DNA from: a virus
Lineage: Duplodnaviria > Caudoviricetes
IMG/VR virus record: IMGVR_UViG_3300048599_000246
Span: 1 to 62,475 of that record
Reading direction: 5' to 3' (one strand)
DNA length: 62,475 bases
The stretch's first letter is position 1. Each line of letters starts with the position of its first letter. Shown in pieces: positions 405 through 12,648 of this stretch. A program made the position numbers and the translations under genes. The notes under the pieces are model-generated. The model did not search any database, had not been told where the DNA came from, and worked only from the letters and a program-made list of their open reading frames with translations.

Positions 405-430
405 TGAGGCGAGGCGCCGCTGAAAACGGA

Positions 431-760
431 TTACGCTACTTCCGCTGAACTTGCGCACTCGACATGCTCCCGATAGAACGTCCGCAACTCTGCGGCAAGG
501 GCGCGGCAGTTGATCCCGTGCCGGCGCTCAAACTCTTTCTCGCCAAGAACGTGATAACTCTCGGGGCCGAACTGGTGATGGCCGAGCCCGCAAAGCGGGA
601 TGACCGAGTAGTCGCTGGATTTCTGCGACATGCCCTGTGAACCGTCGTGCGTATGCGCTGCCTCGGTATGCGAACGCTGCCGGAGGCCAGCCGGATAGCA
701 GATGGCGCACGGTAGCGTCCGGATCCATGCCCGATATTTCTTGTCACGCGGCGGCTTCAT
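431..760 (-). CDS. DUF968/Ref-like HNH-type zinc nuclease
   Basis: KYRAWIRTLPCAIC...TEAAH...SDYSVIPLC..HH motif pattern; ATG 760 overlaps the upstream stop. Confidence 0.7.
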   Translation of the reverse strand: MKPPRDKKYRAWIRTLPCAICYPAGLRQRSHTEAAHTHDGSQGMSQKSSDYSVIPLCGLGHHQFGPESYHVLGEKEFERRHGINCRALAAELRTFYREHVECASSAEVA

Positions 761-1182
761 GCCGCGGAAAGTCCTTCGAGCAGCGGGCGGCCTGGCGTGC
801 GGCGCGAGGGCACATGCGACCAAACGCGATGTCCCTCGAAGTGGTGCTCGTCGCCATCAACCCCCTGCCATCGGTCAGGGCAACCGGAACCGCCAAGATG
901 TTCGAGGAATGAGTAGCCCTTCGGTATGAAGTCCCGAAGGTTGAATTTCTTACCGATCAGCATGAGGCTGTCCGTATCGCGCAGGAAGAAGGCGAGGCGT
1001 TTGCTCTTCGTGCCGCTCTTGAGGAAAGCGAGCGAACACGGCTCCTGCTCTAGAAGTGCGGGCGCCTCTTTGGGTGTCACGCACCCGAGATAGCGCCCGT
1101 CATCCAACGCGTAAACGAGTATGCGATTCGGCCACTTCACCAGGGCGGCCGGCGCAGGGATCTTCCGCTGGTTGCTTGTCAC
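757..1182 (-). CDS. Hypothetical protein
   Basis: 141 aa ORF coupled (ATGA overlap) to the downstream gene. Confidence 0.6.
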   Translation of the reverse strand: MTSNQRKIPAPAALVKWPNRILVYALDDGRYLGCVTPKEAPALLEQEPCSLAFLKSGTKSKRLAFFLRDTDSLMLIGKKFNLRDFIPKGYSFLEHLGGSGCPDRWQGVDGDEHHFEGHRVWSHVPSRRTPGRPLLEGLSAA

Positions 1183-1685
1183 CGTGTTTATCGTCAGGGC
1201 AGGGAACTCCCGTAAGGGAGATGAGCGCAGAGTTGTTTTTTGGGAGACGCGAAGCTCCCGCCCCGCTCATTGGGGGCATGGGCCATTCGTTTCCGGCCCC
1301 TATATGTATTACGACTTTAGCGGCCGTTTTGTTAACGCCCTCTTGAAAGATAATAAGCCGCCTCGTCAGTTCATGCAACTGCTGACGATGTATCTATGCG
1401 TTTCAGAAGTCGTATTTCGATACTTCTAGAAGTAAGGAATTCCGTCTCTAGTTTTAGAGTATTACTTTATACCGTTCCTCCGTCCTAACGGACGGAAGGC
1501 CTGGGAACCGGGCGGCGCGACGATCCCGGCGAGCCCCGGCCCTCGTTCCGTCCGTCCCGGATCGAAAAACGACGCCCGCCAGGCGAGCCCAGAGCGTCCC
1601 GAGTGGCGAATCCGCGCGAAAACGCCCCAGTAAATTTGTACAACTGTTGGAGATATTTTTTTTACGGCTTTTTTCGGGAAAGTCC

Positions 1686-1714
1686 TTGAAATCTCTTCAG
1701 CAGAAGTATTTAAT
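1686..1714 (+). promoter_or_regulatory. Candidate sigma70 early promoter TTGAAA-N17-TTTAAT with an AT-rich upstream (UP-like) tract
   Basis: Near-consensus hexamers with 17-bp spacing in an AT-rich island between the divergent arms. Confidence 0.6.
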
Positions 1715-1720
1715 AGGAAC

Positions 1721-2230
1721 TTCGGCCGGGCGGTTGGACCGAGTCGATCTCTGAAAATAGAGCGGACAGCCGGGTAGAGGATGGCAGGCGGCGCGCTCGC
1801 GAATAGCTGGACCGGGACCGAGACGCGGAAGCGTAGCGAAGACGGGCGGTGGGAAGCGGGCGAGGATAGCGCAGCCCACTGCCGAGAGGCGGCGGGCAAC
1901 CTTACGGCCGAGAGGCAGCAGGGCACAGAATCGAGACGCCGCCGGAAAGAGAGGCGGACAGAGGAGAACGCGGGAGCCACGCGGTAGACCAGAAAGCACG
2001 CCCAGAGCACGCGCCGCCGAATTGGAACGTGGACAGTCCCCCTCAGGGGTAGGCAAGCCTCTGGTGCGGTCGCCTTCGGGCGGCCCCAAGCAAACGACAG
2101 CGAATGAGGGGCGCGGCACGGTTGACCATAGGGACCGGGAACGGCGGATCTAACGAGATCCCCCCGACGCGCAGCAGGCGCGGTCGGCAGCGACGACGAA
2201 AGGCCTTCCCTCAATCGAGGGAAGGAAATA
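1721..2230 (+). ncRNA. Putative large structured ncRNA or 5' leader
   Basis: No credible ORF; GNRA hairpins at 1823-1834, 1879-1892 and 1907-1916, a cUUCGg hairpin at 2068-2085, and a stem at 2205-2224. Confidence 0.4.
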
Positions 2231-2253
2231 TAATAGAGGAGCGGAAAAGAGAT

Positions 2254-2460
2254 ATGCAGATGACGGACGCACAAGTCCTCACCGTAGTATTAGCGACGGT
2301 CCCGACGTTCGTGGTCGTGATCCTGGGGCTGTTCCTGAACAACTCCAGATTGAACGATCTGAAGGACCTCCTCCGAGCGGAGATGGCGAAGAACCAGGCG
2401 GAATTGCTTCTAAAACTCGCGCAGGTTCATTCGCCCGCTCAGCCGGAAACTTCGCATTAA
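2254..2460 (+). CDS. Small single-pass membrane/coiled-coil protein
   Basis: GAGGAGCGGAAA RBS; hydrophobic N-terminus then NNSRLNDLKDLLRAEM. Confidence 0.7.
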   Translation: MQMTDAQVLTVVLATVPTFVVVILGLFLNNSRLNDLKDLLRAEMAKNQAELLLKLAQVHSPAQPETSH

Positions 2461-2464
2461 CGGA

Positions 2465-2497
2465 ACGGGCGGCCTGATCGCAGGTCGCCCGTTTTCC
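2465..2497 (+). terminator. Hairpin / possible intrinsic terminator
   Basis: acgggcggcctg-atcg-caggtcgcccgt followed by a short T-rich tract. Confidence 0.45.
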
Positions 2498-2556
2498 TCA
2501 CTCCCCTAAAACCCCAACCAGAACGACAAAAAATGACGCGCGATCTTTGCGCGTCC

Positions 2557-2615
2557 ACCCGCAAACACTGGGCGCCTCCACGCGGCGCGGGCGGGATCTC
2601 TATGCCAAGACCCAG
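2557..2615 (+). ncRNA. HDV-like ribozyme copy 1 (short P1 variant)
   Basis: P1 acccgc/gcgggc, P2 ctggg/cccag, P3 gcc/ggc, L3 tccacgc, P1.1 GG, J4/2 CCAA. Confidence 0.65.
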
Positions 2616-2639
2616 AACGGTGACAGGAGCGGAAATCCT

Positions 2640-2894
2640 ATGACAAATGCGAATCTGAAGCGTCGCAACGACTATGCGCAGCGGCGCCTGGTCGAGTTGA
2701 GCGCGCCCACCTTGGAGCGCGCCGAATTCGTCCCGGCGAGGACGATTATGGAAGCCGGCGCACGCTTGGCGCGGCAGATCCGGATTGAGCATGAGCGGGT
2801 GGGACTCCTCCGGCGCTCGTGCGGCGGGAGCGGCCGGACGGTGGACGCGAGCGCCTATCACTACGATTCGCGCGCCACGCAGCCGGCAAGATAG
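2640..2894 (+). CDS. Hypothetical early protein
   Basis: AGGAGCGGAAA RBS directly after ribozyme 1. Confidence 0.65.
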   Translation: MTNANLKRRNDYAQRRLVELSAPTLERAEFVPARTIMEAGARLARQIRIEHERVGLLRRSCGGSGRTVDASAYHYDSRATQPAR

Positions 2895-2906
2895 ATCGGA
2901 GCGGCC

Positions 2907-3152
2907 ATGACCATCACAATCAGCAACGATTACCACGGAACGAAAACCACGGCCCGCGTGGGCGAAGATGGAAAACTCAGCAAGCGCCAGATATACCGGA
3001 TCCGCCGGGCGCTGTGCGGTATGCCAGAATGCCGGTGCGGTCAAGGCCCCTTGAAACAACTTGGGCCGCAAGAACTGTTGCCAAACGGGGAACGCTGGGC
3101 GGCCGAGGACATGGGTCGCCTTGGCGTGGTGATCCGTATCTACCCGTTCTAA
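2907..3152 (+). CDS. Hypothetical early protein (CxxxxCxC motif)
   Basis: GGAGCGG RBS; ALCGMPECRCG. Confidence 0.65.
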   Translation: MTITISNDYHGTKTTARVGEDGKLSKRQIYRIRRALCGMPECRCGQGPLKQLGPQELLPNGERWAAEDMGRLGVVIRIYPF

Positions 3153-3214
3153 CCCCAACTAAAGTGTCCCTTTCGGGGCGGCGTCCTGCCGCCCCGGTCC
3201 CCTGAAATCTAATT

Positions 3215-3276
3215 GCCCCGCAAGAAACCGGGCGCCTCCACGTGGCGCGGGGTGGAAGCTGTACGCGAAGTCCCGG
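3215..3276 (+). ncRNA. HDV-like ribozyme copy 2
   Basis: P1 gccccgc/gcggggt (G-U wobble at the cleavage site), P2 ccggg/cccgg, P3 gcc/ggc, L3 tccacgt, GG, J4/2 CGAA. Confidence 0.8.
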
Positions 3277-3305
3277 CCAAACGACAACGGAGAGGGAGCG
3301 GAAAA

Positions 3306-4346
3306 ATGGCAGCGAGAAAGAAGTCCACAAAGAAGGCAGCAACTGTCTGCCCGAGCGATCCGGAAGACGCGCGGACGGCGCTGGAACTCGGGGTGCTGAC
3401 AGTGGGCGCGTTGTACCGCGTCACACGGACGGAAACGGATTTCGATTTTCTGGAGGGCGACCTGCTGAGGTTCATGTCCGCCGATGGCCGCCGGTATTCG
3501 TTCACGGATGAAGCGGGCTCACTGGTTACCGTTGTGGCAACCGAGGACCAACTGTCGTCCATCCTGGAGTCCAGCGACAGGCCACGAGCGGCGGCGCCCG
3601 CAGAGGAACTTGAAGGGCGAGACAACGCGTGCCGGACGTGCGGTGCCAAATACGCCGATGGCGGCGACGGGTTCGATGGCGAATGCCCTTCCTGCGCTGA
3701 CCGGAGAGCCGCGGCGGCGGAGGAAAACGGCACATCCACTGTCGAGACGGTGACCGAGGACCCCCCCGAGAGCGCGGCCCCGGCCGTGGAGCCTGGCAAG
3801 AGGGGGAAACGGACGAAGGCGACCCCGAAGACGAAGGGCGGCAAGAAGGGCAAGAAGACGCCCCAGACGGTCCCCGAGTCGGCGCCGGTGGAAGCGTCCG
3901 CGGAGGCCCCGGCGGCGGCCCCGGAACCGTCCCAGGCCCCGGCGGCGCAGGTCGAGACGGGCGACCCGGTGCTCGAAGCGGGGCTCGAAGCGCACGTGGC
4001 CGCGGCGGTCGCCGCCAAAGTGGAAGCGATCGAGGTCCCGAAAACGGACGCCTGGGAACCGGATATCTTGTTCGTCCGGCTGAAGGGCGACATTGTGGCG
4101 CTGGTGGCCGCGGGGAACGTCGCGGAAGCGGTGCGGCGTCTGAAACTCGCGCTCTGCCCGCCGGAAGCGAAAGAGCGGAAGCCGCGCGAGCCGAAGGCCC
4201 CGAAAGTGGATGGTCCGTGCAAGTGCCCGGTTTGCGGCGCCGGATCGGGGAATCGGCAAGGCGTAGTGGCGCATCTCCGGACGAAGCACGGGTACACGAG
4301 GGAACAATGGCAAGCCGCGATGGCAACACCCGCAGCGGCGGCCTAA
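3306..4346 (+). CDS. Low-complexity (Ala/Pro/Lys) protein with a C4 zinc ribbon and a C-terminal C2H2 zinc finger
   Basis: CRTC...CPSC and CPVC...HLRTKH; GGGAGCGGAAAA RBS. Confidence 0.7.
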   Translation: MAARKKSTKKAATVCPSDPEDARTALELGVLTVGALYRVTRTETDFDFLEGDLLRFMSADGRRYSFTDEAGSLVTVVATEDQLSSILESSDRPRAAAPAEELEGRDNACRTCGAKYADGGDGFDGECPSCADRRAAAAEENGTSTVETVTEDPPESAAPAVEPGKRGKRTKATPKTKGGKKGKKTPQTVPESAPVEASAEAPAAAPEPSQAPAAQVETGDPVLEAGLEAHVAAAVAAKVEAIEVPKTDAWEPDILFVRLKGDIVALVAAGNVAEAVRRLKLALCPPEAKERKPREPKAPKVDGPCKCPVCGAGSGNRQGVVAHLRTKHGYTREQWQAAMATPAAAA

Positions 4347-4351
4347 CAGGT

Positions 4352-4777
4352 TTGCAGTTGCCGCTCCTCGGAGGCGGGCGCCCCGCGGTGCTCGCCTCCG
4401 CTTGTTTGTGCGGGCAGCGTTGCCGGTGGCACGGGAAGCCGACGAGCAAGCACCCGCGCGTGCGAGCACTGGAGCGAAGCGGCGAGACGGTTGTACCGAT
4501 CTGCCCCGAGATGCTGGGCGGACTCCCTTGTCCTCGGCCACCAGTCACACGGCGGCGCGGGCGACTATACCAGACGGACGCGGAGACGCGCACGCTGCGA
4601 GGCCGCGACGTAACGGCGGCGTTCGAGCGCGGCGCGGCGGAAGCGGTGCGGATCGCGCGCGAGACGGGCGCGACAGAAGCGTACCTCTGCATGCGGTCGC
4701 CGTCGTGCGATCCGGACGGCGGAGTAACGGCCCGCGCGCTGGCGGCGGCCGGGTTGAAATTGTACGGACTGTTTTGA
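4352..4777 (+). CDS. DUF523 family protein (2-thiouracil desulfurase/TudS-like, Fe-S)
   Basis: SACLCGQRCRWHG, PICPEMLGGLPCPR, GRDVT..F..GA and RSPSC motifs; start uncertain. Confidence 0.8.
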   Translation: MQLPLLGGGRPAVLASACLCGQRCRWHGKPTSKHPRVRALERSGETVVPICPEMLGGLPCPRPPVTRRRGRLYQTDAETRTLRGRDVTAAFERGAAEAVRIARETGATEAYLCMRSPSCDPDGGVTARALAAAGLKLYGLF

Positions 4778-4793
4778 CGAAAGGGTGCATTGA

Positions 4794-4967
4794 ATGCGAG
4801 ACAAAGTGAAGGTCACGATCACATCGGAAGACGGAGAAGTTCTGGACGACTTCACCGTTTGCCATTGGCGCTACGACTGCGGCGACGACGACCAGGAGAA
4901 CATCGGGTCCCGGGCGTCGGAAGCGCTCTTCCTGGACCGCTTTCGCCGCGTAGTGAAAGCACACTGA
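4794..4967 (+). CDS. Small hypothetical protein (57 aa, MRDKVKVTITSEDGEVLDDF...)
   Basis: Manual translation; fills the gap and ends just before the hairpin of ribozyme 3. Confidence 0.6.
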   Translation: MRDKVKVTITSEDGEVLDDFTVCHWRYDCGDDDQENIGSRASEALFLDRFRRVVKAH

Positions 4968-4990
4968 GGAAACGGCGGCGAGAGCCGCCA

Positions 4991-5048
4991 GCCCCGCAAA
5001 GACCGGACGCCTCCACGTGGCGCGGGGTGGGCAGTGCCAAGGACGGTC
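4991..5048 (+). ncRNA. HDV-like ribozyme copy 3 (P4-less minimal)
   Basis: P1 gccccgc/gcggggt, P2 gaccg/cggtc, P3 gcc/ggc, L3 tccacgt, GG, 6-nt linker, J4/2 CCAA. Confidence 0.8.
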
Positions 5049-5074
5049 GACCATAACAAGGAGCGGAAAATACC

Positions 5075-5599
5075 ATGACTTATAAGTTTCTGTCGGCGGA
5101 CACGCCGGATATAGAGAAAGTGGCTGCGACGATTCCGGACTTGGAGGATTTCTTCCAGGCGGCGCTCGACTACAGCGAGCTAGGGAAGGGCAAGTCCCTG
5201 GATTTCGCGATGGGAGTAGACGCCAAGTTTGCCCTACCGAGCACTGAATTCTCGCAAGCGTTAATCGACAAGATGTTCGACCTCTCGCGCGTGATTACGC
5301 CCAAGGGCGCCATCGGCAGCAGCTTCCTGACCGGCTTCAGTTTCGGCGCGTTGTACTATGCCGCGACCGCGGAGCCCACGCGTGAAACCCTCGCGCAGGT
5401 TTCGGACCTCCGCCACGTCTGGCTGGAACTTAAAGCGGCACGTGCCACGGCGGCGGCGGCAGCGGCAGAAGAGAAACACGAACAGCCCGAACCGGCGGCC
5501 CAGAGCAGCAACGACCTGGACATCAAGATCACGGTCAACGGGCAGACCGTCAAGCCGGGCCAGGCTATCACTATCCCGATAAACGGGTCCGCCTCGTAA
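5075..5599 (+). CDS. Hypothetical early protein
   Basis: AAGGAGCGGAAAA RBS after ribozyme 3. Confidence 0.7.
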   Translation: MTYKFLSADTPDIEKVAATIPDLEDFFQAALDYSELGKGKSLDFAMGVDAKFALPSTEFSQALIDKMFDLSRVITPKGAIGSSFLTGFSFGALYYAATAEPTRETLAQVSDLRHVWLELKAARATAAAAAAEEKHEQPEPAAQSSNDLDIKITVNGQTVKPGQAITIPINGSAS

Positions 5600-5654
5600 C
5601 TTTCCTCCGCAGAACTTCTCCTTAGTCTGTCCCCCGGTTTGCCGCCGGGGGATT

Positions 5655-5717
5655 GCCCCGCAAACATACGGGCGCCTCCACGCGGCGCGGGGTGTAGCTG
5701 TACGCCAAGACCCGATG
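5655..5717 (+). ncRNA. HDV-like ribozyme copy 4
   Basis: P1 gccccgc/gcggggt, P2 cat.cggg/cccgatg, P3 gcc/ggc, L3 tccacgc, single-G P1.1, J4/2 CCAA. Confidence 0.75.
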
Positions 5718-5729
5718 AAGGGAGCGGAA

Positions 5730-6656
5730 ATGCAGGCAGCGAAATTGGTGAGCGCCCCGGAGGTTCTTCCCCCGGAAGCGTGCGATTTCTCGGCGTTCGT
5801 CGCCGAACGCGGACGGCCGCCGTTCCTCGGCGATCAGCCCGCACCGTGGCACTATCGGGGCTGGCTGCTCTGGTACGTGCTGCTGGCGCAGGAGACGCAT
5901 CCGGACGTGCCCGACCGTTGGGGATATTGGGCGCGAACGATGCAGGCGGGGCGGCTGCTAGACGAACCGATCCCGCGCGTCGAATTCTCGGACTCGGCCG
6001 ATGCGGCGGTGACTCGCGACCTTGAAAAGTGGATCGGCATTCTCGATGAGAAGTTCGGAAGTTGGTCCAGTCTGTATCGGTTGCTCGATTGGCTGGCCTG
6101 GGGCCTGGCGGTTTCGCAGGAAGACCCCGACCTGTCGGAAGATGTTTCCGAAAAACTGTACCGCGCGGTGGACATCGGGCCGATGCTACTTCACCCGCAC
6201 GACTACCTGGGGAATTGCCTCGCCGAGTTGAAATCGGGCGGGCATGGGAAATGGAAGAACCCAAGCGGGTTCTACCCGACGCCGCATTGCGTAGTCGAGT
6301 GCATGGTCCGGATGACGATGGCCGACAGCAAAGGCCAGGATATGCGGCGCGCGAGCGTATGCGATCCCTGCGTAGGGACGGGCCGAATGCTGCTCCACGC
6401 GAGCAACTACAGTCTGAACCTCTGGGGAATGGATATCGACCCGGTTGTGACTCGGGCCTGCCTGATAAACGGCGCATTGTATGCGCCCTGGCTGGTGCGG
6501 CCGTTTCCTCCGTCGATTCTGGAGCGGACGCCGATTGCACTTCCACCGCCGGCCCCGTTGCCGGTCCCTCCAGAATATACGCCGGTCGACGGCGCGCCAG
6601 TGTTTCGCTGTGACGACCTCGGCCGCGGCCTTCTCCCTTTCATGCTTGACGAGTAA
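5730..6656 (+). CDS. N6-adenine DNA methyltransferase-like protein (HsdM-type SAM-binding region)
   Basis: GFYPTP and DPCVGTGRMLL (motifs X/I), GMDID; no NPPY-type motif seen. Confidence 0.7.
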   Translation: MQAAKLVSAPEVLPPEACDFSAFVAERGRPPFLGDQPAPWHYRGWLLWYVLLAQETHPDVPDRWGYWARTMQAGRLLDEPIPRVEFSDSADAAVTRDLEKWIGILDEKFGSWSSLYRLLDWLAWGLAVSQEDPDLSEDVSEKLYRAVDIGPMLLHPHDYLGNCLAELKSGGHGKWKNPSGFYPTPHCVVECMVRMTMADSKGQDMRRASVCDPCVGTGRMLLHASNYSLNLWGMDIDPVVTRACLINGALYAPWLVRPFPPSILERTPIALPPPAPLPVPPEYTPVDGAPVFRCDDLGRGLLPFMLDE

Positions 6657-6673
6657 CCCGGCGGAAGCCGGGA

Positions 6674-6729
6674 ACCCCGCAATACCGGAAGCGTCCACGT
6701 TCGCGCGGGGCGGGTTGCGCCAATTCCGG
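6674..6729 (+). ncRNA. HDV-like ribozyme copy 5
   Basis: P1 accccgc/gcggggc, P2 ccggaa/ttccgg, P3 gcg/cgc (compensatory change), L3 tccacgtt, GG, J4/2 CCAA. Confidence 0.75.
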
Positions 6730-6756
6730 ACGGTGACTTAGGAGCGGAAAACGAAA

Positions 6757-8241
6757 ATGACAACGCAATTCCTGAAGTCTTTCAAGGCGGCGCGCCGAGT
6801 GAGCACGCCGATAATCGCTATCGGTACTCCCGACCCCGCGGCGACGATACAGAATGTCGTCAGGGCGCTGAACGGTTCCGCGCCCCCGGTGATCCAGTGG
6901 GACATCGCGCGCGGCGTGACACCGTGCAATCAGCAGGGCGGTCAGGCCATCGCGGCGATCTTTGGCGACCCGAGCGTAGAGACGAACCCGGCCGAATTCC
7001 TGATGAAAGCCGCCCAACTCCCCGAGGCCGTCTGCCTGTTCTTCCACAACGCGCAGCGATACCTGAAGAATGAGGCCGTTGTGCAGGCGGTTTGGAACCT
7101 GCGCGATCAGTTCAAGGCGGATCGGCGGACATTGGTTCTACTCTGCCCCGCGGGCGGAATGGTGGTGCCGGTGGAATTGGCAAACGACGTTCTCACGCTG
7201 GACGAACCGCTCCCGACGCTCGCGGAATTGGGCGGCATCGTAAAAGAGCAGTTCGATTCAGCGGACCTCCCGGTGCCGAAACCTGAGGACGTAGAGCGCG
7301 CGACAGATGCGTTATGCGGTCTGGCCGCATTCCCGGCTGAACAGGCGACGGCCATGTCGCTCACCGCGGAAGGCCTCGACTTCGATGCCTTATGGGAGCG
7401 CAAGCGCAAGATGATTGAACAGACCCCCGGTCTGTCGGTCTGGCGTGGCGGCGAGACGTTCGACCAAATCGGCGGATGCGGAAACGTGAAGCAGTTCATG
7501 GTTGACGTACTCCGCGGCGCAGATTCCCCGCGCGGGATCGTCTTCATTGACGAAATAGAGAAAGCGGTTTCGGGGACAGGTCCGGACTTGTCCGGAGTGT
7601 CCACCGAGATGCTGGGAACGTTGCTGACGTGGATGCAGGACAACCAGGCGACGGGCGTTATTTTCATCGGGCCTCCCGGAGCGGCCAAGTCCGCCGTCGC
7701 GAAAGCGACCGGCAACACGGCGGGCGTCCCCACTATTCAGTTCGACCTGTCGGGGATGAAAGCATCGCTGGTGGGAGAAAGCGGCGCCCGGTTGCGCCAG
7801 GCGCTGAAGGTGGTCGAGGCAGTCACCCAGAACCGCACGTTGTTCGTTGCGACATGCAACTCTATCGGCGCGTTGCCCCCGGAACTCCGCAGGCGTTTCA
7901 CGTTCGGCACGTTTTTCTTCGACCTCCCGGACGCGGAGGAACGCGCGACCATCTGGGAAATCTACTGCAAAAAATTCGGCGTTGGCGGCGAACTTCCATC
8001 AGACGAAGGCTGGACCGGCGCGGAAATCCGGCAATGCTGCGACCTCGCGCGACGGTTGAAGTGTTCACTCGAACGGGCTTCGCATTTCATCGTTCCCGTC
8101 TGCCGTAGCGCAGCGGAGCAGATTGAACGACTGCGGACGCAGGCGTCCGGCAAGTTCACTAGTGCGAGTCATGACGGCCCGTATCGCTTCGAGCAGAAAC
8201 GCGCGGCGGCGACGGGGCGCGCTATCGCGATGGGGGAATAG
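6757..8241 (+). CDS. Ycf46/SpoVK-type AAA+ ATPase with swapped Walker A/B segments
   Basis: ETFDQIGG, FIDEIEK...LLTWMQD, then GPPGAAKS, VGESG, FVATCNSI..LPPEL.RRF...FFFDLP, WTGAEI. Confidence 0.85.
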   Translation: MTTQFLKSFKAARRVSTPIIAIGTPDPAATIQNVVRALNGSAPPVIQWDIARGVTPCNQQGGQAIAAIFGDPSVETNPAEFLMKAAQLPEAVCLFFHNAQRYLKNEAVVQAVWNLRDQFKADRRTLVLLCPAGGMVVPVELANDVLTLDEPLPTLAELGGIVKEQFDSADLPVPKPEDVERATDALCGLAAFPAEQATAMSLTAEGLDFDALWERKRKMIEQTPGLSVWRGGETFDQIGGCGNVKQFMVDVLRGADSPRGIVFIDEIEKAVSGTGPDLSGVSTEMLGTLLTWMQDNQATGVIFIGPPGAAKSAVAKATGNTAGVPTIQFDLSGMKASLVGESGARLRQALKVVEAVTQNRTLFVATCNSIGALPPELRRRFTFGTFFFDLPDAEERATIWEIYCKKFGVGGELPSDEGWTGAEIRQCCDLARRLKCSLERASHFIVPVCRSAAEQIERLRTQASGKFTSASHDGPYRFEQKRAAATGRAIAMGE

Positions 8242-8472
8242 GCGGTGTTGCCCCACGATCAGAGGAGCAGCACGCCGTTGCTTCATTCACTGCACCCGAA
8301 TCGAACACGAGGGGTTTCGAGGACCGGAACTGGCGGAAGTTTGAACGAAACGAGCCGTCTGCTGGTGGGCCTCGCTTGGATGCGCACGGCGGAAATCGGC
8401 GTGCTTCACAATCGCGAATTCGAGCGGCGGGTCCACGTTCGGCACGACCCCGATATGGAGAGCTTCTAGACC

Positions 8473-9252
8473 ATGACCAGCGAATCGGCGAGCCTCTACT
8501 TCCGCGCAGGCACGAGCGATAAGGTCTACCAAATTTGGCTTGAGCCGGAACCGGACATTCCCGAAATGCGTTCGTGGCGCGTCAGGTTCGCGTATGGGCG
8601 GCGCCTTGCGACGCTGCGGTCCAATTTTAAGATCCGGCGGGCACCGTTCGCTTATGCGCGGCAGATTTACGATAAGTCCCTCTTGGAGAAACTTTCCAAG
8701 GGGTATCGCAAGGGACCGGAGTACACGAAGGGTGTGGAGATTCCTCCGCTCGAAGCAGAGCCCGCACCCACGGTTCGTAAACGGTTCGAGCCCTTCGCGC
8801 GACCTACCACGGCTTACAATCCCTTCGAGCCGGAGTCTTTGAGGGGAGACACATTGCCGACTTGCGGCTATTGCGGGCAGCCCGTCCGGCTGTTCTTCCC
8901 GGACGGAACGCGCGTTCGTGATACGCGGTATTGTTCGGCGCGTTGCGCGGGCCTCGCCGCAAAGCGCGAAGCAGCCCGGACAGAACGGGCGAAACCTACA
9001 TGGAACGCCACTTGCTCTTACTGCGGGCGCGCGGTTCGGCTCGAAGTCGGCGGCTTCCTGGATGAGACTTCCGGGAGATGGTATTGCTCCGGCGCGTGTA
9101 GGAACGCGGACCAACGACGCGGCGCGCCGATCTTCCGGAAACCTCTGAAGTCCAAACCGAAACCCGTTCCCAGGCCGGCGTATGAACCGCCGGAACCTCC
9201 AGACCCGCTCACGGTGAAACCGCGGCGGCGAATCTCGTTTAACGACGAATAG
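8473..9252 (+). CDS. WGR-domain protein with C-terminal zinc ribbons
   Basis: LYFRAGTSDKVY...FAYGRR...KLSKGY; two CxxC...YCSxxC motifs. Confidence 0.7.
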   Translation: MTSESASLYFRAGTSDKVYQIWLEPEPDIPEMRSWRVRFAYGRRLATLRSNFKIRRAPFAYARQIYDKSLLEKLSKGYRKGPEYTKGVEIPPLEAEPAPTVRKRFEPFARPTTAYNPFEPESLRGDTLPTCGYCGQPVRLFFPDGTRVRDTRYCSARCAGLAAKREAARTERAKPTWNATCSYCGRAVRLEVGGFLDETSGRWYCSGACRNADQRRGAPIFRKPLKSKPKPVPRPAYEPPEPPDPLTVKPRRRISFNDE

Positions 9253-9263
9253 GAAAGGATCTT

Positions 9264-9608
9264 ATGCCTTGCTGGACGATACAAGAATCGAAACTCGAAG
9301 TAAAGAATCTCAACCAGGACGTGCTGACGGCCACGCTTGAATCCCTTGGCTACGTAGTGCAGCGCAGGGGTGAACAGTTTTATGCGGACCACATGAAGCC
9401 GGGCGAACTCCGCTACACGGTGGTCTGCATGAAGGATGGCGAAATGGTCGTGCAGTTGCGCGACGGTTCGCGGGTGACGGCGGAGCGCGCAATGCGGCAG
9501 GTGAAGGTCGCCTATGGGCAGACGGCCATCCGGACGATGGCAAAACGGTTCGGGTGGCAGGTGAAGCAGGAAGACGAAACTCATTTCCAGGTGATGCGGC
9601 GGTATTGA
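9264..9608 (+). CDS. DUF1257/Ycf35-like protein
   Basis: L..TLESLGY...VKVAYG...AKRFGWQV pattern; context downstream of the Ycf46-like ATPase. Confidence 0.55.
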   Translation: MPCWTIQESKLEVKNLNQDVLTATLESLGYVVQRRGEQFYADHMKPGELRYTVVCMKDGEMVVQLRDGSRVTAERAMRQVKVAYGQTAIRTMAKRFGWQVKQEDETHFQVMRRY

Positions 9609-9618
9609 GGAGCGGACG

Positions 9619-9840
9619 ATGCAGAACGACACTATCGAAATCGAAATCATCGAAGCGGACGGCTCGTTGAAAGTGACGACGGACAAAATCAGCCAGGCGA
9701 ACCACCTGAACGCTGATGCGCTGTTGCGCGAGATGGGGCGCGTGATGGGCGGCGAGACGATCCGGACACACCGAAAGGACTCGTATGGACACGTCCACGA
9801 ACACGTCCACGAACACGAGCACGAGCATAACCATGCCTAA
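9619..9840 (+). CDS. DUF2997-like small protein with a His-rich tail
   Basis: IEIEI..DGSLKVTT; HVHEHVHEHEHEH tail; operon context. Confidence 0.55.
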   Translation: MQNDTIEIEIIEADGSLKVTTDKISQANHLNADALLREMGRVMGGETIRTHRKDSYGHVHEHVHEHEHEHNHA

Positions 9841-10108
9841 TATTTCCGTCCTGGACTTGAAGCCGGTGGGTAGGTTTGCGGACGGGAGCCCTATTTACAG
9901 GTTCTCGGTGGGGTTCCCCACGCGTGGTGTGCAGGAAGTCGGTCCCGCGTTCGCCACTCCGCAGGAAGCCTACGCCCACGGCGGGGTGGAACTTCGCAAG
10001 TATGAGGCGGCAGACCCGATGGGAAACATGGGCGCGGTGTTGGGCGTCACGGAAGTTGAGGGCGGCGGATTCCGCGCGGTGATCGTTACGTATCACTCGA
10101 ACACTTGA
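9833..10108 (+). CDS. Hypothetical protein
   Basis: Overlaps the upstream stop; protein-like composition. Confidence 0.55.
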   Translation: MPNISVLDLKPVGRFADGSPIYRFSVGFPTRGVQEVGPAFATPQEAYAHGGVELRKYEAADPMGNMGAVLGVTEVEGGGFRAVIVTYHSNT

Positions 10109-10274
10109 AGCCCGCCGCAACGGCCCCGAAAGGACGGTGATGAATAGCGGGCGGATCCGGACGGCGCATTATCGCGGGGAGCCTCGGGGGAGGCGGCGAA
10201 TGGATGCGACGGGCGGACCCGCTACACGAACCAGATTGAAGACAATCCGAAGCCCGCGCGCAGCCGCGCGGGTT

Positions 10275-10330
10275 GCCCCGCCGAACAGGCGGCCTCCACG
10301 TGGCGCGGGGCGGGTGGTGCTGACGGCCTG
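10275..10330 (+). ncRNA. HDV-like ribozyme copy 6
   Basis: P1 gccccgc/gcggggc, P2 caggc/gcctg, P3 gcc/ggc, L3 tccacgt, GG, J4/2 CTGA. Confidence 0.8.
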
Positions 10331-10363
10331 AGTGAAGAGTGGACCAAAGGAGCGGAAAACGAA

Positions 10364-11395
10364 ATGGCTACTTCTATGATGTCGATGGAAACGACGGGCA
10401 CGATCCCCGGAAATCTGCTGACGGACCAGGGCGAGAAACCCACGGCGCTTCAGGTAACGCGCGCGGCCACGCTGACAGACAAGGCGGTTTGCGTACAGAT
10501 CGAATTGCACGGTATCGGCTGCCGGCGCACGGTTTCAACCTCACAGATCGAGGTCACCGGCGATGCAGATAAGGCGACCGACAAGACGTTGCTCGCCGCG
10601 TCCAAAAAACTGTTCGTCTCGCCGGAGTATGACCGGCTCAAAAAACTGGACGGTCGGATTCGGCAATACGTCTACGCCCAGGCGATTCAGAGTGGACTGT
10701 CGAGCGGGTTCTATTGGCTCCCGATCCCGGCGGTTCAACGGGTCCACGAGAAGCTGAAAGAGTTTCGCGCGGAACGTCAGAAAATCATTGATGAGTGGAC
10801 CACCCCGCTCGAAGGCGAAACGCAGTCGCCCTACGAGAAAGAAATCGACGCGATACAGCCGAAACTCGGCCCTTTGTTCAACCGCGGCGATTACCTCTCA
10901 GTGGACCGCGTCCGCAAGATGCACTGGTTTGAATGGTCTTACGTCTCGTTTGGCGCCCCGGAAAAACTGAAGTCCATCTCAATCGAGATGTACCAGGCGG
11001 CGCAAGACCAGGCGGCGCGGAAGGTGGAACAGGCGGCGGAACTGGCGCAGCAAGTCCTCCGGGCCAACATGCTCAAACTGGTCGAGCACCTGACGGATAA
11101 ACTCTCCGGCCGCACCGAGGACGGGAAGCGCAAGGCGTTTCGCACCGAGTCGGTCGACAAGGTGAAAACGTTCCTCACGGAGTTTCGCGAGCGGAACATC
11201 ACGGATGACGCTGAACTGGGCGCCCTGGTGGAAGATGCGAAACTGCTGATCGCTGGCGTCGACCCGGAAACGCTCCGCAAGGACGACCGGACACGCGACC
11301 TGGTAGCGGAGGGATTTTCTCAGATCCAGGCACGGCTCGACACGATGGTCGTGGACCGGCCCAGGCGAGCAATTTCGTTCAAGGACGAGGAATAG
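10364..11395 (+). CDS. DUF3150-like protein
   Basis: ASKKLF, GFYWLP, FNRGDY, NITDDAEL..LV..A pattern; AAGGAGCGGAAAA RBS. Confidence 0.6.
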   Translation: MATSMMSMETTGTIPGNLLTDQGEKPTALQVTRAATLTDKAVCVQIELHGIGCRRTVSTSQIEVTGDADKATDKTLLAASKKLFVSPEYDRLKKLDGRIRQYVYAQAIQSGLSSGFYWLPIPAVQRVHEKLKEFRAERQKIIDEWTTPLEGETQSPYEKEIDAIQPKLGPLFNRGDYLSVDRVRKMHWFEWSYVSFGAPEKLKSISIEMYQAAQDQAARKVEQAAELAQQVLRANMLKLVEHLTDKLSGRTEDGKRKAFRTESVDKVKTFLTEFRERNITDDAELGALVEDAKLLIAGVDPETLRKDDRTRDLVAEGFSQIQARLDTMVVDRPRRAISFKDEE

Positions 11396-11397
11396 CG

Positions 11398-12648
11398 ATG
11401 TCTGCCCCCGAAGACGCCCCGGTATGCGCCGTTTGCGGGCGGCCGGTCCGCACCGAAATCGTCCACGTTCGGGAGGGGAAGCCGTGCCATCCGCTCTGCT
11501 TCCCCCTCGGGGACCACCCCGAGGCCCAGAACGACCCGGAAGACGCCGCAGAAACGGCCACAGACAGCGCCCAGGATCCCCCAGACGAGCCGGAGGGCGG
11601 CGCCGGGACGGAGAGACGCAACCGGCGCGGCGAGACGCCCACGGACGCGGCGGCGCGCAGGGAGCGCGAAGCGGCAGAATGGCGGGAACGGATCGAAGCA
11701 TTGCGGACGGCGGACCCGGCAGAGGGGCCGATGGATTTCTACGAGCCGTTCCTGCGCGCGATCCGGATGCACGAGCCCGGCGGTTCCGTCCACGAGTCGA
11801 ATATCACGCTAAACAGCCAGTGCTGGGCGCTTAGCGCGGAGGCGACGAGTATGCAGTTTTTCGCGCTCGCGAAACTCGTTCAGGAAGGAATCCTCGAACC
11901 CGACGCGGACCTCTGCGGACAGTACACGATTCACCGGGAGAGGTTCCCAGACGAAGGCCGCGACTATTTCGCGGAAGCGCTCGAATGGTTGGCGCACAAG
12001 TGCGTTACCGAGAGCGTAGACGACCACTCGTTGAAATACCAACTGAACATCTATGACGGAGCCGACCGCGAAGCGGTGCTCGCCCGGCTCCAGTCCGAGG
12101 GGTTTATCAACGCGAAGCAGAAAATCCTGAAGCGTCCGGAGGGCGCGACGGCCGAGTGCCACGTATTCAACCCGTCGAAGTTTGGCGAGGCGGAAATCCG
12201 AATCTGCCGGCATGAAGGCGGCGGCTTCGCGGTGCGAGTCGGTTGTAGCGTGGACTTCGGCAAGAGTAACGGCAGCGGCCAGTGGTGCCCGGTTCGCGCG
12301 CCGGGGACCACGTTTGAAGACGAGCACGGATGGTCGACGCGAGACGCGGCGCTCGAGGCGGGCTGTATCGAAGTCGCGCGTATCGAGGAGGGATGCGAAC
12401 AGGCGGCCTTGTCGAAGGGCGCGGAGAAGGCGGCCGATGCGGCGCGGAAAATCCGCGCGTGGGCCGAGATGTTATTGAAGCGGCCGATACCGCGGCAGCA
12501 CAGCGTGGAAAGTCGGCCGGAGCGTGGCGGAGAGACGGAAAAGAACCGCCGCGAAACCGAGGCAACAAGCGAGGCCACACCGGGAAAGCGGAAACCGGCG
12601 GAGCCCGAGAAAAACTCTACGGTGAGCGAACAACTCACCCTCTTTTGA
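11398..12648 (+). CDS. Hypothetical protein
   Basis: 416 aa ORF in operon; ends in QLTLF, which resembles a beta-clamp-binding motif. Confidence 0.65.
   Translation: MSAPEDAPVCAVCGRPVRTEIVHVREGKPCHPLCFPLGDHPEAQNDPEDAAETATDSAQDPPDEPEGGAGTERRNRRGETPTDAAARREREAAEWRERIEALRTADPAEGPMDFYEPFLRAIRMHEPGGSVHESNITLNSQCWALSAEATSMQFFALAKLVQEGILEPDADLCGQYTIHRERFPDEGRDYFAEALEWLAHKCVTESVDDHSLKYQLNIYDGADREAVLARLQSEGFINAKQKILKRPEGATAECHVFNPSKFGEAEIRICRHEGGGFAVRVGCSVDFGKSNGSGQWCPVRAPGTTFEDEHGWSTRDAALEAGCIEVARIEEGCEQAALSKGAEKAADAARKIRAWAEMLLKRPIPRQHSVESRPERGGETEKNRRETEATSEATPGKRKPAEPEKNSTVSEQLTLF

What the first reader, a model, noticed from the sequence alone, without database searches (positions are those of the whole stretch)
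2557..10330. Six minimal HDV-like self-cleaving ribozymes punctuate the early operon, one before each gene block
Seen in sequence: six intergenic elements (2557-2615, 3215-3276, 4991-5048, 5655-5717, 6674-6729, 10275-10330) share the HDV nested double-pseudoknot layout. The order is P1 (GCCCCGC/GCGGGGY, with a G-U at the cleavage position in three copies), a variable P2 that always pairs, P3 GCC/GGC, L3 UCCACGY, GG for P1.1 (single G in copy 4), a short P4-less linker, then J4/2 C-N-R-A carrying the catalytic C. P2 pairings differ in each copy (ctggg/cccag, ccggg/cccgg, gaccg/cggtc, cggg/cccg, ccggaa/ttccgg, caggc/gcctg), and copy 5 has a compensatory P3 GCG/CGC, so structure rather than sequence is conserved. 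Established: minimal HDV-like theta ribozymes in phages are best known at tRNA 3' ends. Here no tRNA is visible, and every copy lies ~12-35 nt upstream of a start codon. Inference: a ribozyme-based system cuts one polycistronic early transcript into gene-sized mRNAs. Their 5'-OH ends would resist 5'-monophosphate-dependent decay.
Basis: partly seen in the sequence, partly recalled or inferred. Interest (0 to 1): 0.95.

Follow-up and report, generated by a model that had tools for sequence, protein, structure and literature searches.

The report
Six HDV-like ribozymes punctuating phage operon
Six small self-cutting RNA motifs of the hepatitis-delta type sit between gene blocks on one arm of an uncultured 62-kb phage, each between a hairpin and a ribosome-binding site, and most likely chop one long message into separate capped messages, which is a new variant of an arrangement known from other ribozyme classes.

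Summary
Six + strand intergenic elements (2557-2615, 3215-3276, 4991-5048, 5655-5717, 6674-6729, 10275-10330) have the HDV-like double-pseudoknot layout with the J4/2 cytosine.

- **Rfam:** 0 matches at gathering score. Five of six match RF02682 full-length below threshold.
- **Independent model:** a covariance model built only from 25 relatives in other contigs ranks exactly these six first, at 26.4-46.5 bits. The next hit scores 13.4.
- **P2:** it differs in every copy, and only the cognate assignment pairs best, 1 of 720 permutations.
- **Cassette:** every copy lies in the order GC hairpin, ribozyme, GGAGCGGAAA, ATG.
- **Same cassette elsewhere:** one unrelated 15.9-kb contig has five HDV-like copies plus a twister-sister in one slot.

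This supports co-transcriptional cutting of a polycistronic RNA. Cleavage itself is untested.

**Weak points**
- Copies 1 and 5 have A opposite C at the cleavage-site pair.
- Copy 4 has one P1.1 pair.
- Phages sharing the neighbouring ATPase gene lack the elements.
- No sequencing run, RNA or DNA, was listed.

Hammerhead arrays of this kind were published in 2011. This scan's notes record similar HDV-like arrays on other DNA. Verdict: a new variant of a known kind.

The parts
2535..2555 (+). Hairpin H1, ending 1 nt before the predicted cleavage site of ribozyme 1
   Evidence: -13.8 kcal/mol, z -3.53
2557..2615 (+). Ribozyme 1. P1 ACCCGC/GCGGGC (6 positions, A opposite C first), P2 CUGGG(+C)/(G+a)CCCAG, 12-nt linker, J4/2 CCAA
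   Evidence: RF02682, 18.9 bits; 28.0 bits, E 0.0027
2626..2642 (+). GGAGCGGAAA ribosome-binding motif and ATG (2640) of gene 2640-2894; gene 2907-3152 follows
3173..3197 (+). Hairpin H2, ending 17 nt before the cleavage site
   Evidence: -22.2 kcal/mol, z -3.35
3215..3276 (+). Ribozyme 2. G.U at the cleavage site, P2 CCGGG/CCCGG, J4/2 CGAA
   Evidence: 23.0 bits; 46.5 bits, E 7.6e-7
3295..3308 (+). GGAGCGGAAA and ATG (3306) of gene 3306-4346
4974..4989 (+). Hairpin H3, ending 1 nt before the cleavage site
   Evidence: -17.4 kcal/mol for the 40-nt stretch, z -4.39
4991..5048 (+). Ribozyme 3. G.U, P2 GACCG/CGGUC extended over a tandem G.A to a closing C-G, 8-nt linker, J4/2 CCAA
   Evidence: 28.3 bits, E 0.042; 45.3 bits
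5060..5077 (+). GGAGCGGAAA and ATG (5075) of gene 5075-5599
5630..5652 (+). Hairpin H4, ending 2 nt before the cleavage site
   Evidence: -20.9 kcal/mol, z -3.26
5655..5717 (+). Ribozyme 4. G.U, P2 CGGG/CCCG (extendable), only one P1.1 pair (G then U), J4/2 CCAA
   Evidence: 27.5 bits; 36.2 bits
5721..5732 (+). GGAGCGGAAA overlapping ATG (5730) of gene 5730-6656, a weak N6_Mtase match
6657..6672 (+). Hairpin H5, starting right after the stop codon and ending 1 nt before the cleavage site
   Evidence: -14.8 kcal/mol, z -1.70, the weakest of the six
6674..6729 (+). Ribozyme 5. A opposite C at the cleavage site, P3 GCG/CGC, L3 of 8 nt, P2 CCGGAA/UUCCGG, J4/2 CCAA
   Evidence: 26.4 bits, E 0.0054; not found by Rfam
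6741..6759 (+). GGAGCGGAAA and ATG (6757) of the AAA ATPase gene 6757-8241, first of a tightly packed block running to 10108
10251..10274 (+). Hairpin H6, abutting the cleavage site
   Evidence: -18.6 kcal/mol, z -3.25
10275..10330 (+). Ribozyme 6. G-C at the cleavage site, P2 CAGGC/GCCUG plus a closing pair, J4/2 CUGA
   Evidence: 22.6 bits; 37.2 bits
10349..10366 (+). GGAGCGGAAA and ATG (10364) of gene 10364-11395; genes 11398-12648 and 12665-13270 follow

Best explanation
The six elements are minimal (P4-less) HDV-like self-cleaving ribozymes, transcribed as part of a long + strand message of a temperate tailed phage.

Each most likely folds as it is made and cuts just 5' of P1. That would leave two products.
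- The upstream RNA ends in a GC hairpin, 0-2 nt before the cut in five copies and 17 nt in copy 2, with a 2',3'-cyclic phosphate.
- The downstream RNA begins with a 5'-OH buried in the compact ribozyme fold. An A-rich unstructured spacer follows, then the GGAGCGGAAA ribosome-binding motif and the start codon.

The net effect would be to convert one polycistronic transcript into six or seven gene-block mRNAs. Their ends, stability and translation start context would be set by the cassette and not by neighbouring sequence.

**Status of each step**
- Shown: the motifs, their fold-consistent covariation, the cassette and its recurrence elsewhere.
- Inferred: cleavage, co-transcription from one promoter, and stabilisation or insulation.
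For: - **Motif:** 6 hits against 0.12 expected, all on the coding strand.
- **Rfam:** five of six match RF02682 over the full model at 18.9-28.3 bits. No other ribozyme family appears in the window at E up to 1.
- **Independent model:** model R1, built from 25 non-window sequences, scores the six at 26.4-46.5 bits (E 7.6e-7 to 5.4e-3). The next hit is 13.4 bits, E 1.7.
- **Core:** the J4/2 cytosine and the L3 U-CC-N-C-G motif are present in 6 of 6 copies.
- **P2:** the cognate duplex averages -8.6 against -4.7 kcal/mol for non-cognate pairs; 1 of 720 permutations is as good.
- **Compensatory changes:** P3 is GCG/CGC in copy 5. Copy 1 has lost one nucleotide on each P1 strand.
- **Relatives:** on 25 sequences, 99.8% of cells pair, against 34-55% when partners are slid. 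P4 was not demanded by my search descriptor, and 4 of its 5 pairs change on both sides.
- **Link to known theta-type ribozymes:** relatives with the same core abut a tRNA-Met 3' end (L057) and a tmRNA 3' end (L051). This is the context in which theta ribozymes were shown to cleave in vitro (PMC10879173, sections read).
- **Cassette in the window:** all six have an upstream hairpin, z -1.7 to -4.4. All six have the GGAGCGGAAA motif.
- **Cassette family-wide, 48 unique GC-rich relatives:**
  - 41 of 48 have a hairpin of -10 kcal/mol or better ending within 6 nt of the cut.
  - 45 of 48 have an SD and a start within 60 nt.
  - Only 2 of 28 tRNA-neighbourhood relatives have an SD and a start.
- **Class interchange:** an unrelated contig, L223, has five HDV-like cassettes in 3.1 kb. 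A twister-sister (RF02681, 55.3 bits, gathering score 34) fills the sixth junction. If different ribozyme classes are interchangeable, cutting is the selected function.
- **Precedent:** hammerhead arrays flanking genes in prophages cleaved about 2-kb polycistronic constructs in vitro (PMC3088659, passages).
Against: - **No direct evidence of cleavage.** No sequencing run holding this DNA, RNA or DNA, was listed.
- **Rfam threshold not reached.** No copy reaches the gathering score of 44, and copy 5 is not detected by Rfam at all.
- **A opposite C at the cleavage site.** Copies 1 and 5 have this pair. No other copy in my listings of relatives has it.
- **Other core departures.** Copy 4 has a single P1.1 pair, and copy 6 has G at the third J4/2 position.
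- **Strict descriptor.** My strict generic descriptor found only 4 of 6 copies, plus one unrelated hit. Decoy motifs gave 1, 1 and 3 start sites for A, G and U.
- **Absent from relatives of the ATPase gene.**
  - 59 loci encoding relatives of the adjacent AAA ATPase (1.13 Mb) have no such element above decoy level: C 5, A 5, G 0, T 2.
  - R1 found nothing at E below 0.43 in the 19 loci given.
  - In the nearest locus the ATPase gene is packed against its neighbour.
  - The ribozymes are therefore dispensable for these genes.
- **Two terminator-like hairpins** with U-rich tails lie in the unit, at 2465-2495 and 4369-4400. One uninterrupted transcript is therefore not certain.
- **Circularity.** Pairing in P1, P2 and P3 is partly by construction, because my descriptor required it.
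Confidence: 0.72

Rival explanations
1. The elements are ribozyme-derived structured leaders that no longer cleave, or only some do. They would act as folded 5'-UTR modules that shape translation initiation or block RNases without cutting.
For: - Copies 1 and 5 have A opposite C at the cleavage-site pair.
- Copy 4 has one P1.1 pair.
- Copy 6 has CUGA in J4/2.
- All copies score under the Rfam gathering score.
- Each copy lies at a fixed short distance from the RBS.
Against: - The catalytic cytosine and the L3 core are kept in 6 of 6 copies.
- A twister-sister, a structurally unrelated self-cleaver, occupies the same kind of slot in L223. That is hard to explain unless cutting matters.
- An upstream hairpin placed 0-2 nt before the cut makes sense as a 3' end cap only if cutting occurs.
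Confidence: 0.1
2. The cassettes are mobile or selfish insertions, copied within and between phages, with little benefit to this phage. Cleavage would be incidental.
For: - The elements are absent from the loci of 59 phages sharing the ATPase gene.
- 53 of those 59 also have a homologue of the gene after copy 6.
- Unrelated contigs have the same P1, P3, L3 and P1.1 letters, and their neighbouring genes show no protein similarity to the window's.
- The six paralogous copies average 73% column identity.
Against: - Compensatory P2, P3 and P1 changes among the six copies show selection on the fold after duplication.
- Every copy is on the coding strand and placed precisely between a stop-proximal hairpin and an RBS.
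- No transposase or homing-endonuclease family matched any of the 40 predicted proteins I scanned. The genes next to each cassette were among them.
Confidence: 0.08
3. Cleavage is conditional. The differences between copies (wobble type, P1.1 strength, linker length) would tune or gate cutting, for instance by pH, Mg2+ or a factor. That would set relative amounts or timing of the gene blocks, in place of simple constitutive processing.
For: - The first P1 pair varies among the copies: G.U in three, A opposite C in two, G-C in one.
- P1.1 strength and linker length (8 or 11-12 nt) also vary.
- An A+.C wobble can protonate near neutrality when flanked by strong pairs (PMC12282950, one passage).
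- Perreault et al. raise regulated cleavage for slow phage hammerheads (PMC3088659, passages).
Against: - No ligand-binding or sensor domain is present. The elements are minimal, at 56-63 nt.
- The variation could be neutral drift.
- Nothing here measures rates.
Confidence: 0.07
4. The repeats act at the DNA level, as promoters for a phage-directed polymerase or sigma factor, as operators, or as recombination sites. The RNA fold would then be coincidental.
For: - The elements are repeated, strand-specific conserved boxes upstream of gene blocks.
- The consensus scan found no sigma-70-type promoter in 1-15000, so the promoters of these blocks are unknown.
Against: - The variable segments change in a strictly base-pair-preserving way. 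A DNA site does not require that.
- The same core sits at tRNA and tmRNA 3' ends in other phages.
- The elements match an HDV ribozyme model end to end.
Confidence: 0.03

Closest known systems
Theta ribozymes and minimal HDV-like ribozymes of Caudoviricetes (Kienbeck et al. 2024, PMC10879173; sections 5, 10 and 13 read)
   Same: - Short HDV-like double pseudoknot with a reduced P4, in tailed-phage genomes and in sense orientation.
- Relatives that share the window's P3-L3-P1.1 core abut a tRNA-Met and a tmRNA 3' end.
- The paper also lists 526 occurrences not next to a tRNA, of unknown function.
   Different: - The window has no tRNA.
- There are six copies in 7.8 kb, each 12-33 nt before a start codon and behind a hairpin. 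[quoted passage not shown]
- The phage has about 62% G+C and its source is unknown; it is not one of the gut Bacteroidota or Bacillota phages.
- The exact published descriptor is in a figure and a supplement that I could not see.
Clustered hammerhead ribozymes flanking genes in prophages (Perreault et al. 2011, PMC3088659; passages read)
   Same: - Several self-cleaving ribozymes flank single genes or short gene blocks of a phage transcript.
- They are proposed to cut it into gene-length mRNAs.
- One archaeal-virus hammerhead lies 13 nt before a start codon.
   Different: - The ribozyme class is HDV-like, not hammerhead.
- An HDV-like ribozyme stays wholly on the downstream product, so it also forms the new 5' end structure.
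- The passages I read mention no regular hairpin-ribozyme-RBS cassette.
Rfam RF02682, HDV ribozyme from F. prausnitzii, and RF00094, HDV ribozyme
   Same: - The matches run end to end.
- The P1 and P3 register and the L3 and J4/2 letters agree (alignments).
   Different: - Scores are 18.9-28.3 bits against a gathering score of 44.
- The P4 of the model (16-20 positions) is replaced by 2-9 nt.
- Copy 5 is missed.
RNase III processing sites between the early genes of phage T7, and synthetic ribozyme insulators such as RiboJ (both recalled; no call)
   Same: - A long early transcript is cut at intergenic structured sites into stable mRNAs whose 3' ends are hairpins.
- In the synthetic case, a self-cleaving ribozyme placed before the RBS makes expression independent of upstream sequence.
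   Different: - In T7 a host protein enzyme cuts, whereas here the RNA would cut itself.
- RiboJ is engineered, whereas this would be a natural counterpart.

Membership tests
HDV-like self-cleaving ribozymes | Nested double pseudoknot: P1, P2, P3 and P1.1 in the canonical order | tested here: met
   All six copies parse into this order. Cognate P2 is the best assignment in 1 of 720 permutations. On 25 relatives, 99.8% of cells pair, against 34-55% when partners are slid.
HDV-like self-cleaving ribozymes | Catalytic cytosine at the first J4/2 position, followed by N-R-A | tested here: met
   6 of 6 copies: CCAA in four, CGAA in one, CUGA in one.
HDV-like self-cleaving ribozymes | L3 with U, CC (for P1.1) and G in fixed places, and two G after P1 to pair with CC | tested here: met
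   L3 is UCCACG in 6 of 6 copies. GG follows P1 in 5 of 6; copy 4 has G then U.
HDV-like self-cleaving ribozymes | G.U wobble, or another pair, closing P1 at the cleavage site | tested here: inconclusive
   G.U in 3 copies, G-C in 1, A opposite C in 2. On 25 relatives the counts are G.U 19, G-C 5, A-U 1. That an A+.C wobble could stand in for G.U in this ribozyme is recalled, and the paper was not held.
HDV-like self-cleaving ribozymes | Score at or above the curated Rfam threshold (RF02682 or RF00094) | tested here: not met
   No match at gathering score. The best is 28.3 bits against 44. The shortfall is largely the missing P4.
HDV-like self-cleaving ribozymes | Site-specific self-cleavage that gives a 5'-OH and a 2',3'-cyclic phosphate and is abolished by C-to-U | not testable with these tools
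   This needs in vitro transcription assays. No sequencing run was listed.
Theta ribozymes (tRNA-associated subgroup) | Cleavage site within 5 nt of a tRNA 3' end | tested here: not met
   The window has 0 tRNA or tmRNA genes. Hairpins and stop codons lie upstream instead.
Theta ribozymes (motif) | Match to the published RNArobo descriptor (their Fig. 2b iv and Supplementary Fig. 6) | not testable with these tools
   Figures are not held and supplements are closed. Only the prose description was read.
Ribozyme-punctuated phage operons | Several self-cleaving ribozymes, in sense orientation, in the gaps between genes or short gene blocks of one transcription unit | tested here: met
   There are six copies, all on the + strand. 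They fill six of the seven + strand gaps over 60 nt between 2460 and 10364; the exception is 4346-4794. Junctions of 12 nt or less carry none.

The most novel reading that the evidence does not exclude
The hairpin-ribozyme-RBS unit may be a portable, self-contained mRNA punctuation cassette.

- It would spread horizontally among unrelated GC-rich phages and be interchangeable with other ribozyme classes.
- It would give each gene block defined ends: a hairpin with a 2',3'-cyclic phosphate at the 3' end, and a 5'-OH buried in a pseudoknot at the 5' end.
- Such ends could escape the host's end-dependent RNA decay.
- The natural variants (A opposite C in place of G.U, a one-pair P1.1, linker length) would set graded cleavage rates, and hence the stoichiometry of the blocks.

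A bolder extension is not excluded. RNAs released between two cuts carry exactly the ends that RtcB-type ligases join, so some blocks could be circularised.
Probability: 0.15. Interest if true: 0.75.

Novelty: new variant of a known kind. Interest (0 to 1): 0.55.

Why it matters
Most self-cleaving ribozymes in bacteria and phages have no established function. The theta-ribozyme study left 526 occurrences away from tRNAs unexplained.

This window gives a clean, testable case.
- It has six copies of one minimal ribozyme class in a fixed cassette.
- The copies carry natural core variants.
- Companion arrays in other phages swap in a twister-sister.

If cleavage is confirmed, three things would follow.
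- It would assign an mRNA-processing and end-capping role to HDV-like ribozymes in phages.
- It would provide a natural counterpart of the ribozyme insulators used in synthetic biology.
- It would offer very small (56-63 nt) GC-rich HDV-like ribozymes for engineering.

It would not be a new principle. The same idea was proposed for hammerhead arrays in 2011.

Tried and rejected
- **RNA evidence.** One look-up for sequencing runs holding 2400-10500 listed none, so read mapping was not possible.
- **Orthologous copies.**
  - I looked for homologous phages to test covariation in orthologous copies. Fifty-nine loci with relatives of the AAA ATPase hold no HDV-like element above decoy level. Seven of them, picked by hand from the higher-identity rows, hold no Rfam ribozyme, only a tRNA.
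  - A search with the major capsid protein found no relative.
  - A pattern joining the ribozyme core to GGAGCGGAA found nothing.
  - Covariation therefore rests on the six paralogues and on family-level relatives.
- **Isolated phages.**
  - The closest terminase matches are 40-47% identical over about half the protein.
  - blastn of one cassette found nothing.
- **MAFFT alignments of the six copies (A1, A2) and of nine minimal forms (A3).** These were not structural at the 3' or 5' end, so I did not use them for pair counts.
- **Alignment A4 (27 rows).** Two rows were misaligned (L223:5396-5466 and L032), and I dropped them to make A5 with 25 rows.
- **Pattern scans.**
  - The P3-free scan and the genome-contig scan returned mostly chance matches in GC-rich DNA.
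  - The decoy comparison (47 unique fits with C, against 8, 8 and 1) is biased. The pattern already contained the C.
  - Searches do not have this bias.
  - My first anchored fitter had a regular-expression error that hid many hits. It was corrected.
- **Module boundaries.** I asked whether the ribozymes mark the borders of exchanged modules. They do not cleanly do so, because the gene after copy 6 co-occurs with the ATPase in 53 of 59 loci.
- **End-healing enzymes.** No RNA ligase, RtcB or kinase family matched any of the 40 window proteins scanned.
- **Literature.** In six searches I found no paper describing arrays of HDV-like ribozymes in phage operons. Weinberg et al. 2015 and Cerrone-Szakal et al. 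2008 are not held, and supplements are closed, so such a description may exist there.

Full report
**What the window is**

The window is a complete IMG/VR virus record of 62,475 bp with direct terminal repeats and about 60-65% G+C throughout.
- It is a tailed phage. It has a major head protein, a portal, a large terminase, an Erf-like annealing protein and a DnaB-like helicase.
- It has a tyrosine integrase on the - strand at 22228-23145, so it is probably temperate.
- Genes run on the + strand from about 2.2 to 28.5 kb and on the - strand after that.
- There is no tRNA or tmRNA gene.
- No isolated phage is close. The best terminase matches are 40-47% identical over about half the protein.

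**The observation**

- A loose motif (CCCGC, 6-20 nt, TCCACG, 4-8 nt, CGGG) occurs six times, all on the + strand, against 0.12 expected; 0 of 100 shuffles reach six. The reverse strand and the backwards control have none.
- Parsed, each copy reads in this order: P1 5' strand, J1/2, P2 5' strand, P3 (3 bp), L3 (UCCACG plus 1-2 nt), P3 3' strand, P1 3' strand, G(G), a linker of 8 or 11-12 nt in place of P4, then G-C-N-R-A, then the P2 3' strand.
These are the G.U in copies 2, 3 and 4, the single P1.1 G in copy 4, the GCG/CGC P3 in copy 5, and the six different P2 helices.

Four things were not stated.
- Copies 1 and 5 have A opposite C at the first P1 position.
- Copy 1 has lost one C and one G from the two P1 strands, which is a compensatory shortening.
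- In copies 1, 2, 4 and 6, P2 is a closing pair next to P3, a one-base bulge, and then 4-5 pairs. In copy 3 a tandem G.A/A.G takes the place of the bulge.
- Copy 6 has CUGA in J4/2.

**Is it an HDV-like ribozyme?**

*Rfam.* At gathering thresholds Rfam finds nothing in the window.
- With permissive settings on 2400-10500, five of the six match RF02682 (the HDV ribozyme of F. prausnitzii). The matches cover model position 1 to 74, at 18.9-28.3 bits (gathering 44) and E 0.042-6.3.
- Copy 3 also matches RF00094 at 24.4 bits. Copy 5 is missed.
- The alignments agree in P1, P3, L3 and J4/2. The model's 16-20 P4 positions are replaced by 2-9 nt, which explains much of the shortfall.
- Over the whole window at E up to 1, only two of these HDV matches appear and no other ribozyme family.

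*Generic descriptor.* My own descriptor had no sequence constraints apart from CC in L3, one G after P1 and the catalytic base.
- It found 4 of 6 copies plus one unrelated hit with C. Decoy motifs gave 1, 1 and 3 start sites for A, G and U.
- A looser version allowed one P1 mismatch and a tandem mismatch in P2. It found all six with C. Its decoy hits were two spurious re-parses of copies 3 and 5 with over-long linkers, plus three unrelated low-quality sites.

*Covariance model built without the window.*
- Pattern scans of viral, metagenome and genome collections and my fitter gave many relatives.
- From these I aligned 27 P4-bearing elements. I dropped two misaligned rows and kept 25 (A5).
- On A5 the full pseudoknotted structure pairs in 99.8% of cells, against 34-55% when partners are slid by 1-3 columns.
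- P4 was not required by my descriptor. It pairs in 99.2% of cells, and 4 of its 5 pairs change on both sides.
- P1, P2 and P3 each have one pair that switches G-C to A-U in 4-5 sequences. Pairing in these three helices is partly by construction, so P4 and the slid controls are the fair tests.
- A covariance model from A5 (P2, P3 and P4 as pairs) was run over the whole window with filters off. It ranks the six elements first, at 46.5, 45.3, 37.2, 36.2, 28.0 and 26.4 bits (E 7.6e-7 to 5.4e-3). The seventh hit scores 13.4 bits, E 1.7. There are no further copies.

*Covariation among the six copies.*
- Copies 1, 2 and 4 have related P2 helices, but no two of the six are the same.
- I folded the 9 nt before P3 of each copy against the tail after J4/2 of every copy.
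- The cognate pair is the most stable in every row and every column, with a mean of -8.6 against -4.7 kcal/mol. Only 1 of the 720 assignments reaches the cognate total.

*Link to described ribozymes.*
- A scan that left P1 free brought in relatives with the same P3-L3-P1.1 core and 15 different P1 3' strands.
- Of 30 unique elements, 21 have a perfect 6-nt complement in the 32 nt upstream. The two controls give 3 and 5.
- One such element starts at the last base of a tRNA-Met (L057). Another starts one base after a tmRNA (L051).
- Abutting a tRNA 3' end is the published definition of tRNA-associated theta ribozymes, four of which cleaved in vitro (PMC10879173, sections 5 and 10 read).
- I could not compare with the published descriptor or sequence lists, because figures and supplements are not available.

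**The surroundings: a cassette**

- *Hairpin.* Directly upstream of each copy is a GC-rich hairpin, at -13.8 to -22.2 kcal/mol for the folded stretch and z -1.7 to -4.4. It ends 0-2 nt before the predicted cut in five copies and 17 nt before it in copy 2. The hairpins have no U tract.
- *RBS and start.* Downstream, after 3-18 nt of A-rich spacer, comes GGAGCGGAAA, and the start codon follows 0-6 nt after the motif. The motif also occurs without a ribozyme at 2238, 19393 and 50951, so it is this phage's preferred ribosome-binding context and not part of the ribozyme.
- *Which gaps are filled.* The six cassettes fill six of the seven + strand gaps longer than 60 nt between 2460 and 10364. The exception is 4346-4794, which starts with a terminator-like hairpin. 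The other junctions are 12 nt or less and carry none.
- *Further downstream.* Gaps beyond 10.4 kb have no ribozyme.
- *Promoters.* The consensus scan found no sigma-70-type promoter in 1-15000. An AT-rich island at about 1400-1720 holds a TTGAAA-17-TTTAAT candidate that fails the scan's rule. The host's promoters are unknown, so a single transcript is an inference.

**The same cassette elsewhere**

- Among 48 unique GC-rich relatives with complete flanks:
  - 41 have an upstream hairpin of -10 kcal/mol or better that ends within 6 nt of the cut.
  - The mean is -16.2 kcal/mol, against -10.1 for a window 60 nt further upstream.
  - 23 of the 48 control windows reach -10, with no end-distance condition applied.
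  - 45 have a Shine-Dalgarno-like motif and a start within 60 nt.
  - Among 28 relatives from tRNA neighbourhoods, only 2 have a motif and a start.
- Contig L223 (15.9 kb) has five HDV-like cassettes at 2851, 3353, 4884, 5396 and 5919. A twister-sister ribozyme above the Rfam threshold (55.3 bits, gathering 34) lies at 4519-4587, between a stop codon and the next ribosome-binding site.
- L361 and L467 also combine twister-sister and HDV-like elements.
- Eight of the 30 loci with a fit in the last two scans hold two fits. Two of those eight hold only low-quality fits.
- These contigs share no detectable protein with the window's neighbouring genes.
- The 59 phage loci that do share the AAA ATPase lack the ribozymes. 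In the nearest one the ATPase gene is packed directly against its neighbour.
- The cassette therefore behaves as an accessory module that is gained and lost independently of the genes it precedes.

**How it most likely works**

*Established chemistry.* Small nucleolytic ribozymes leave a 2',3'-cyclic phosphate on the upstream product and a 5'-OH on the downstream product (PMC6765202, passages). An HDV-like ribozyme lies entirely 3' of its cut.

*Inference.*
- As the long + strand RNA is made, each element folds and cuts.
- The upstream message then ends in a hairpin with almost no single-stranded tail.
- The downstream message begins with the base-paired 5'-OH of P1 inside a compact pseudoknot, followed by an unstructured RBS.
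- This would protect both new ends and make translation initiation independent of upstream sequence.

*Alternative role for the hairpin.* It may keep upstream sequence from mispairing with the ribozyme. That role is recalled from work on the HDV ribozyme and was not checked here.

*The 5'-OH claim.* Whether a 5'-OH protects depends on the host. I recall that in Bacillus the 5'-OH product of the glmS ribozyme is a target of RNase J1.

*Copies that may be slow or inactive.* Copies 1 and 5 (A opposite C), copy 4 (one P1.1 pair) and copy 6 (CUGA) may be slower or inactive. An A+.C wobble can form near neutral pH between strong pairs (PMC12282950, one passage). Its effect in this ribozyme is recalled only.

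**Comparison with what is known, and novelty**

- *Fold and catalytic core.* These are HDV-like ribozymes of the minimal, theta-like kind. They fail the Rfam threshold and the tRNA-adjacency criterion.
- *Arrangement.* It is the one described for hammerheads in prophages in 2011: several ribozymes flanking genes, with cleavage of about 2-kb constructs shown in vitro (PMC3088659, passages). A 2019 review mentions the same idea for hammerhead and twister (PMC6765202, passages).
- *Literature gap.* In six literature searches I found no description of arrays made of HDV-like ribozymes, or of the hairpin-ribozyme-RBS cassette. Two relevant papers and all supplements were out of reach.
- *This scan's own notes.* They record similar HDV-like arrays in other genomes, one with 13 HDV-like and 2 twister elements. 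Those are unchecked notes, but they suggest the arrangement is recurrent.
- *Rating.* I rate it a new variant of a known kind, of moderate interest. It is a clean, testable case that gives a function to 'isolated' theta-like ribozymes. It is not a new principle.

Noticed in passing
L051:1097-1548: In another viral contig, an HDV-like ribozyme with the same core starts one base after the 3' end of a phage-encoded tmRNA. ARAGORN places the tmRNA at 1097-1492 and the ribozyme starts at 1493. This suggests ribozyme-made tmRNA 3' ends.
   Followed up: partly
L223:4519-4587: A twister-sister ribozyme (RF02681, 55.3 bits, gathering 34) fills one intercistronic slot in an array of five HDV-like cassettes. 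L361 and L467 show the same mix.
   Followed up: partly
L007:2611-2720; L011:8146-8260; L423:999-1110: In three contigs the minimal ribozyme follows a hairpin that ends in TTT. A sigma-70-like promoter comes after it (TTGTCA or TTGCCA, then TACAAT or a similar box) and not an RBS. This is a different context, possibly cutting read-through RNA.
   Followed up: no
window 2465-2495 and 4369-4400: Two terminator-like hairpins with U-rich tails lie inside the presumed transcription unit. One follows the first small gene (2254-2460) and the other follows gene 3306-4346. The 4400-4790 stretch after the second has no convincing gene.
   Followed up: partly
window 1400-1720: An AT-rich island lies between the divergent arms, with a TTGAAA-17-TTTAAT promoter candidate at 1686-1714. 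About 540 nt follow before the first start codon at 2254. The candidate fails the consensus scan's rule.
   Followed up: partly
window 2238, 19393, 50951: The exact GGAGCGGAAA motif also occurs at three places without a ribozyme. In all there are 9 exact and 6 one-mismatch sites, against 8.0 expected.
   Followed up: no
window 22228-23145 (-): A tyrosine integrase (Phage_integrase, E 1.8e-22) lies on the opposite strand within the + strand arm, so the phage is probably temperate.
   Followed up: no
window 6757-11395 and L228-L286: The AAA ATPase and the gene at 10364-11395 co-occur in 53 of 59 phage loci, so they form a conserved module of unknown function. In the window it is split by ribozyme 6.
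   Followed up: partly
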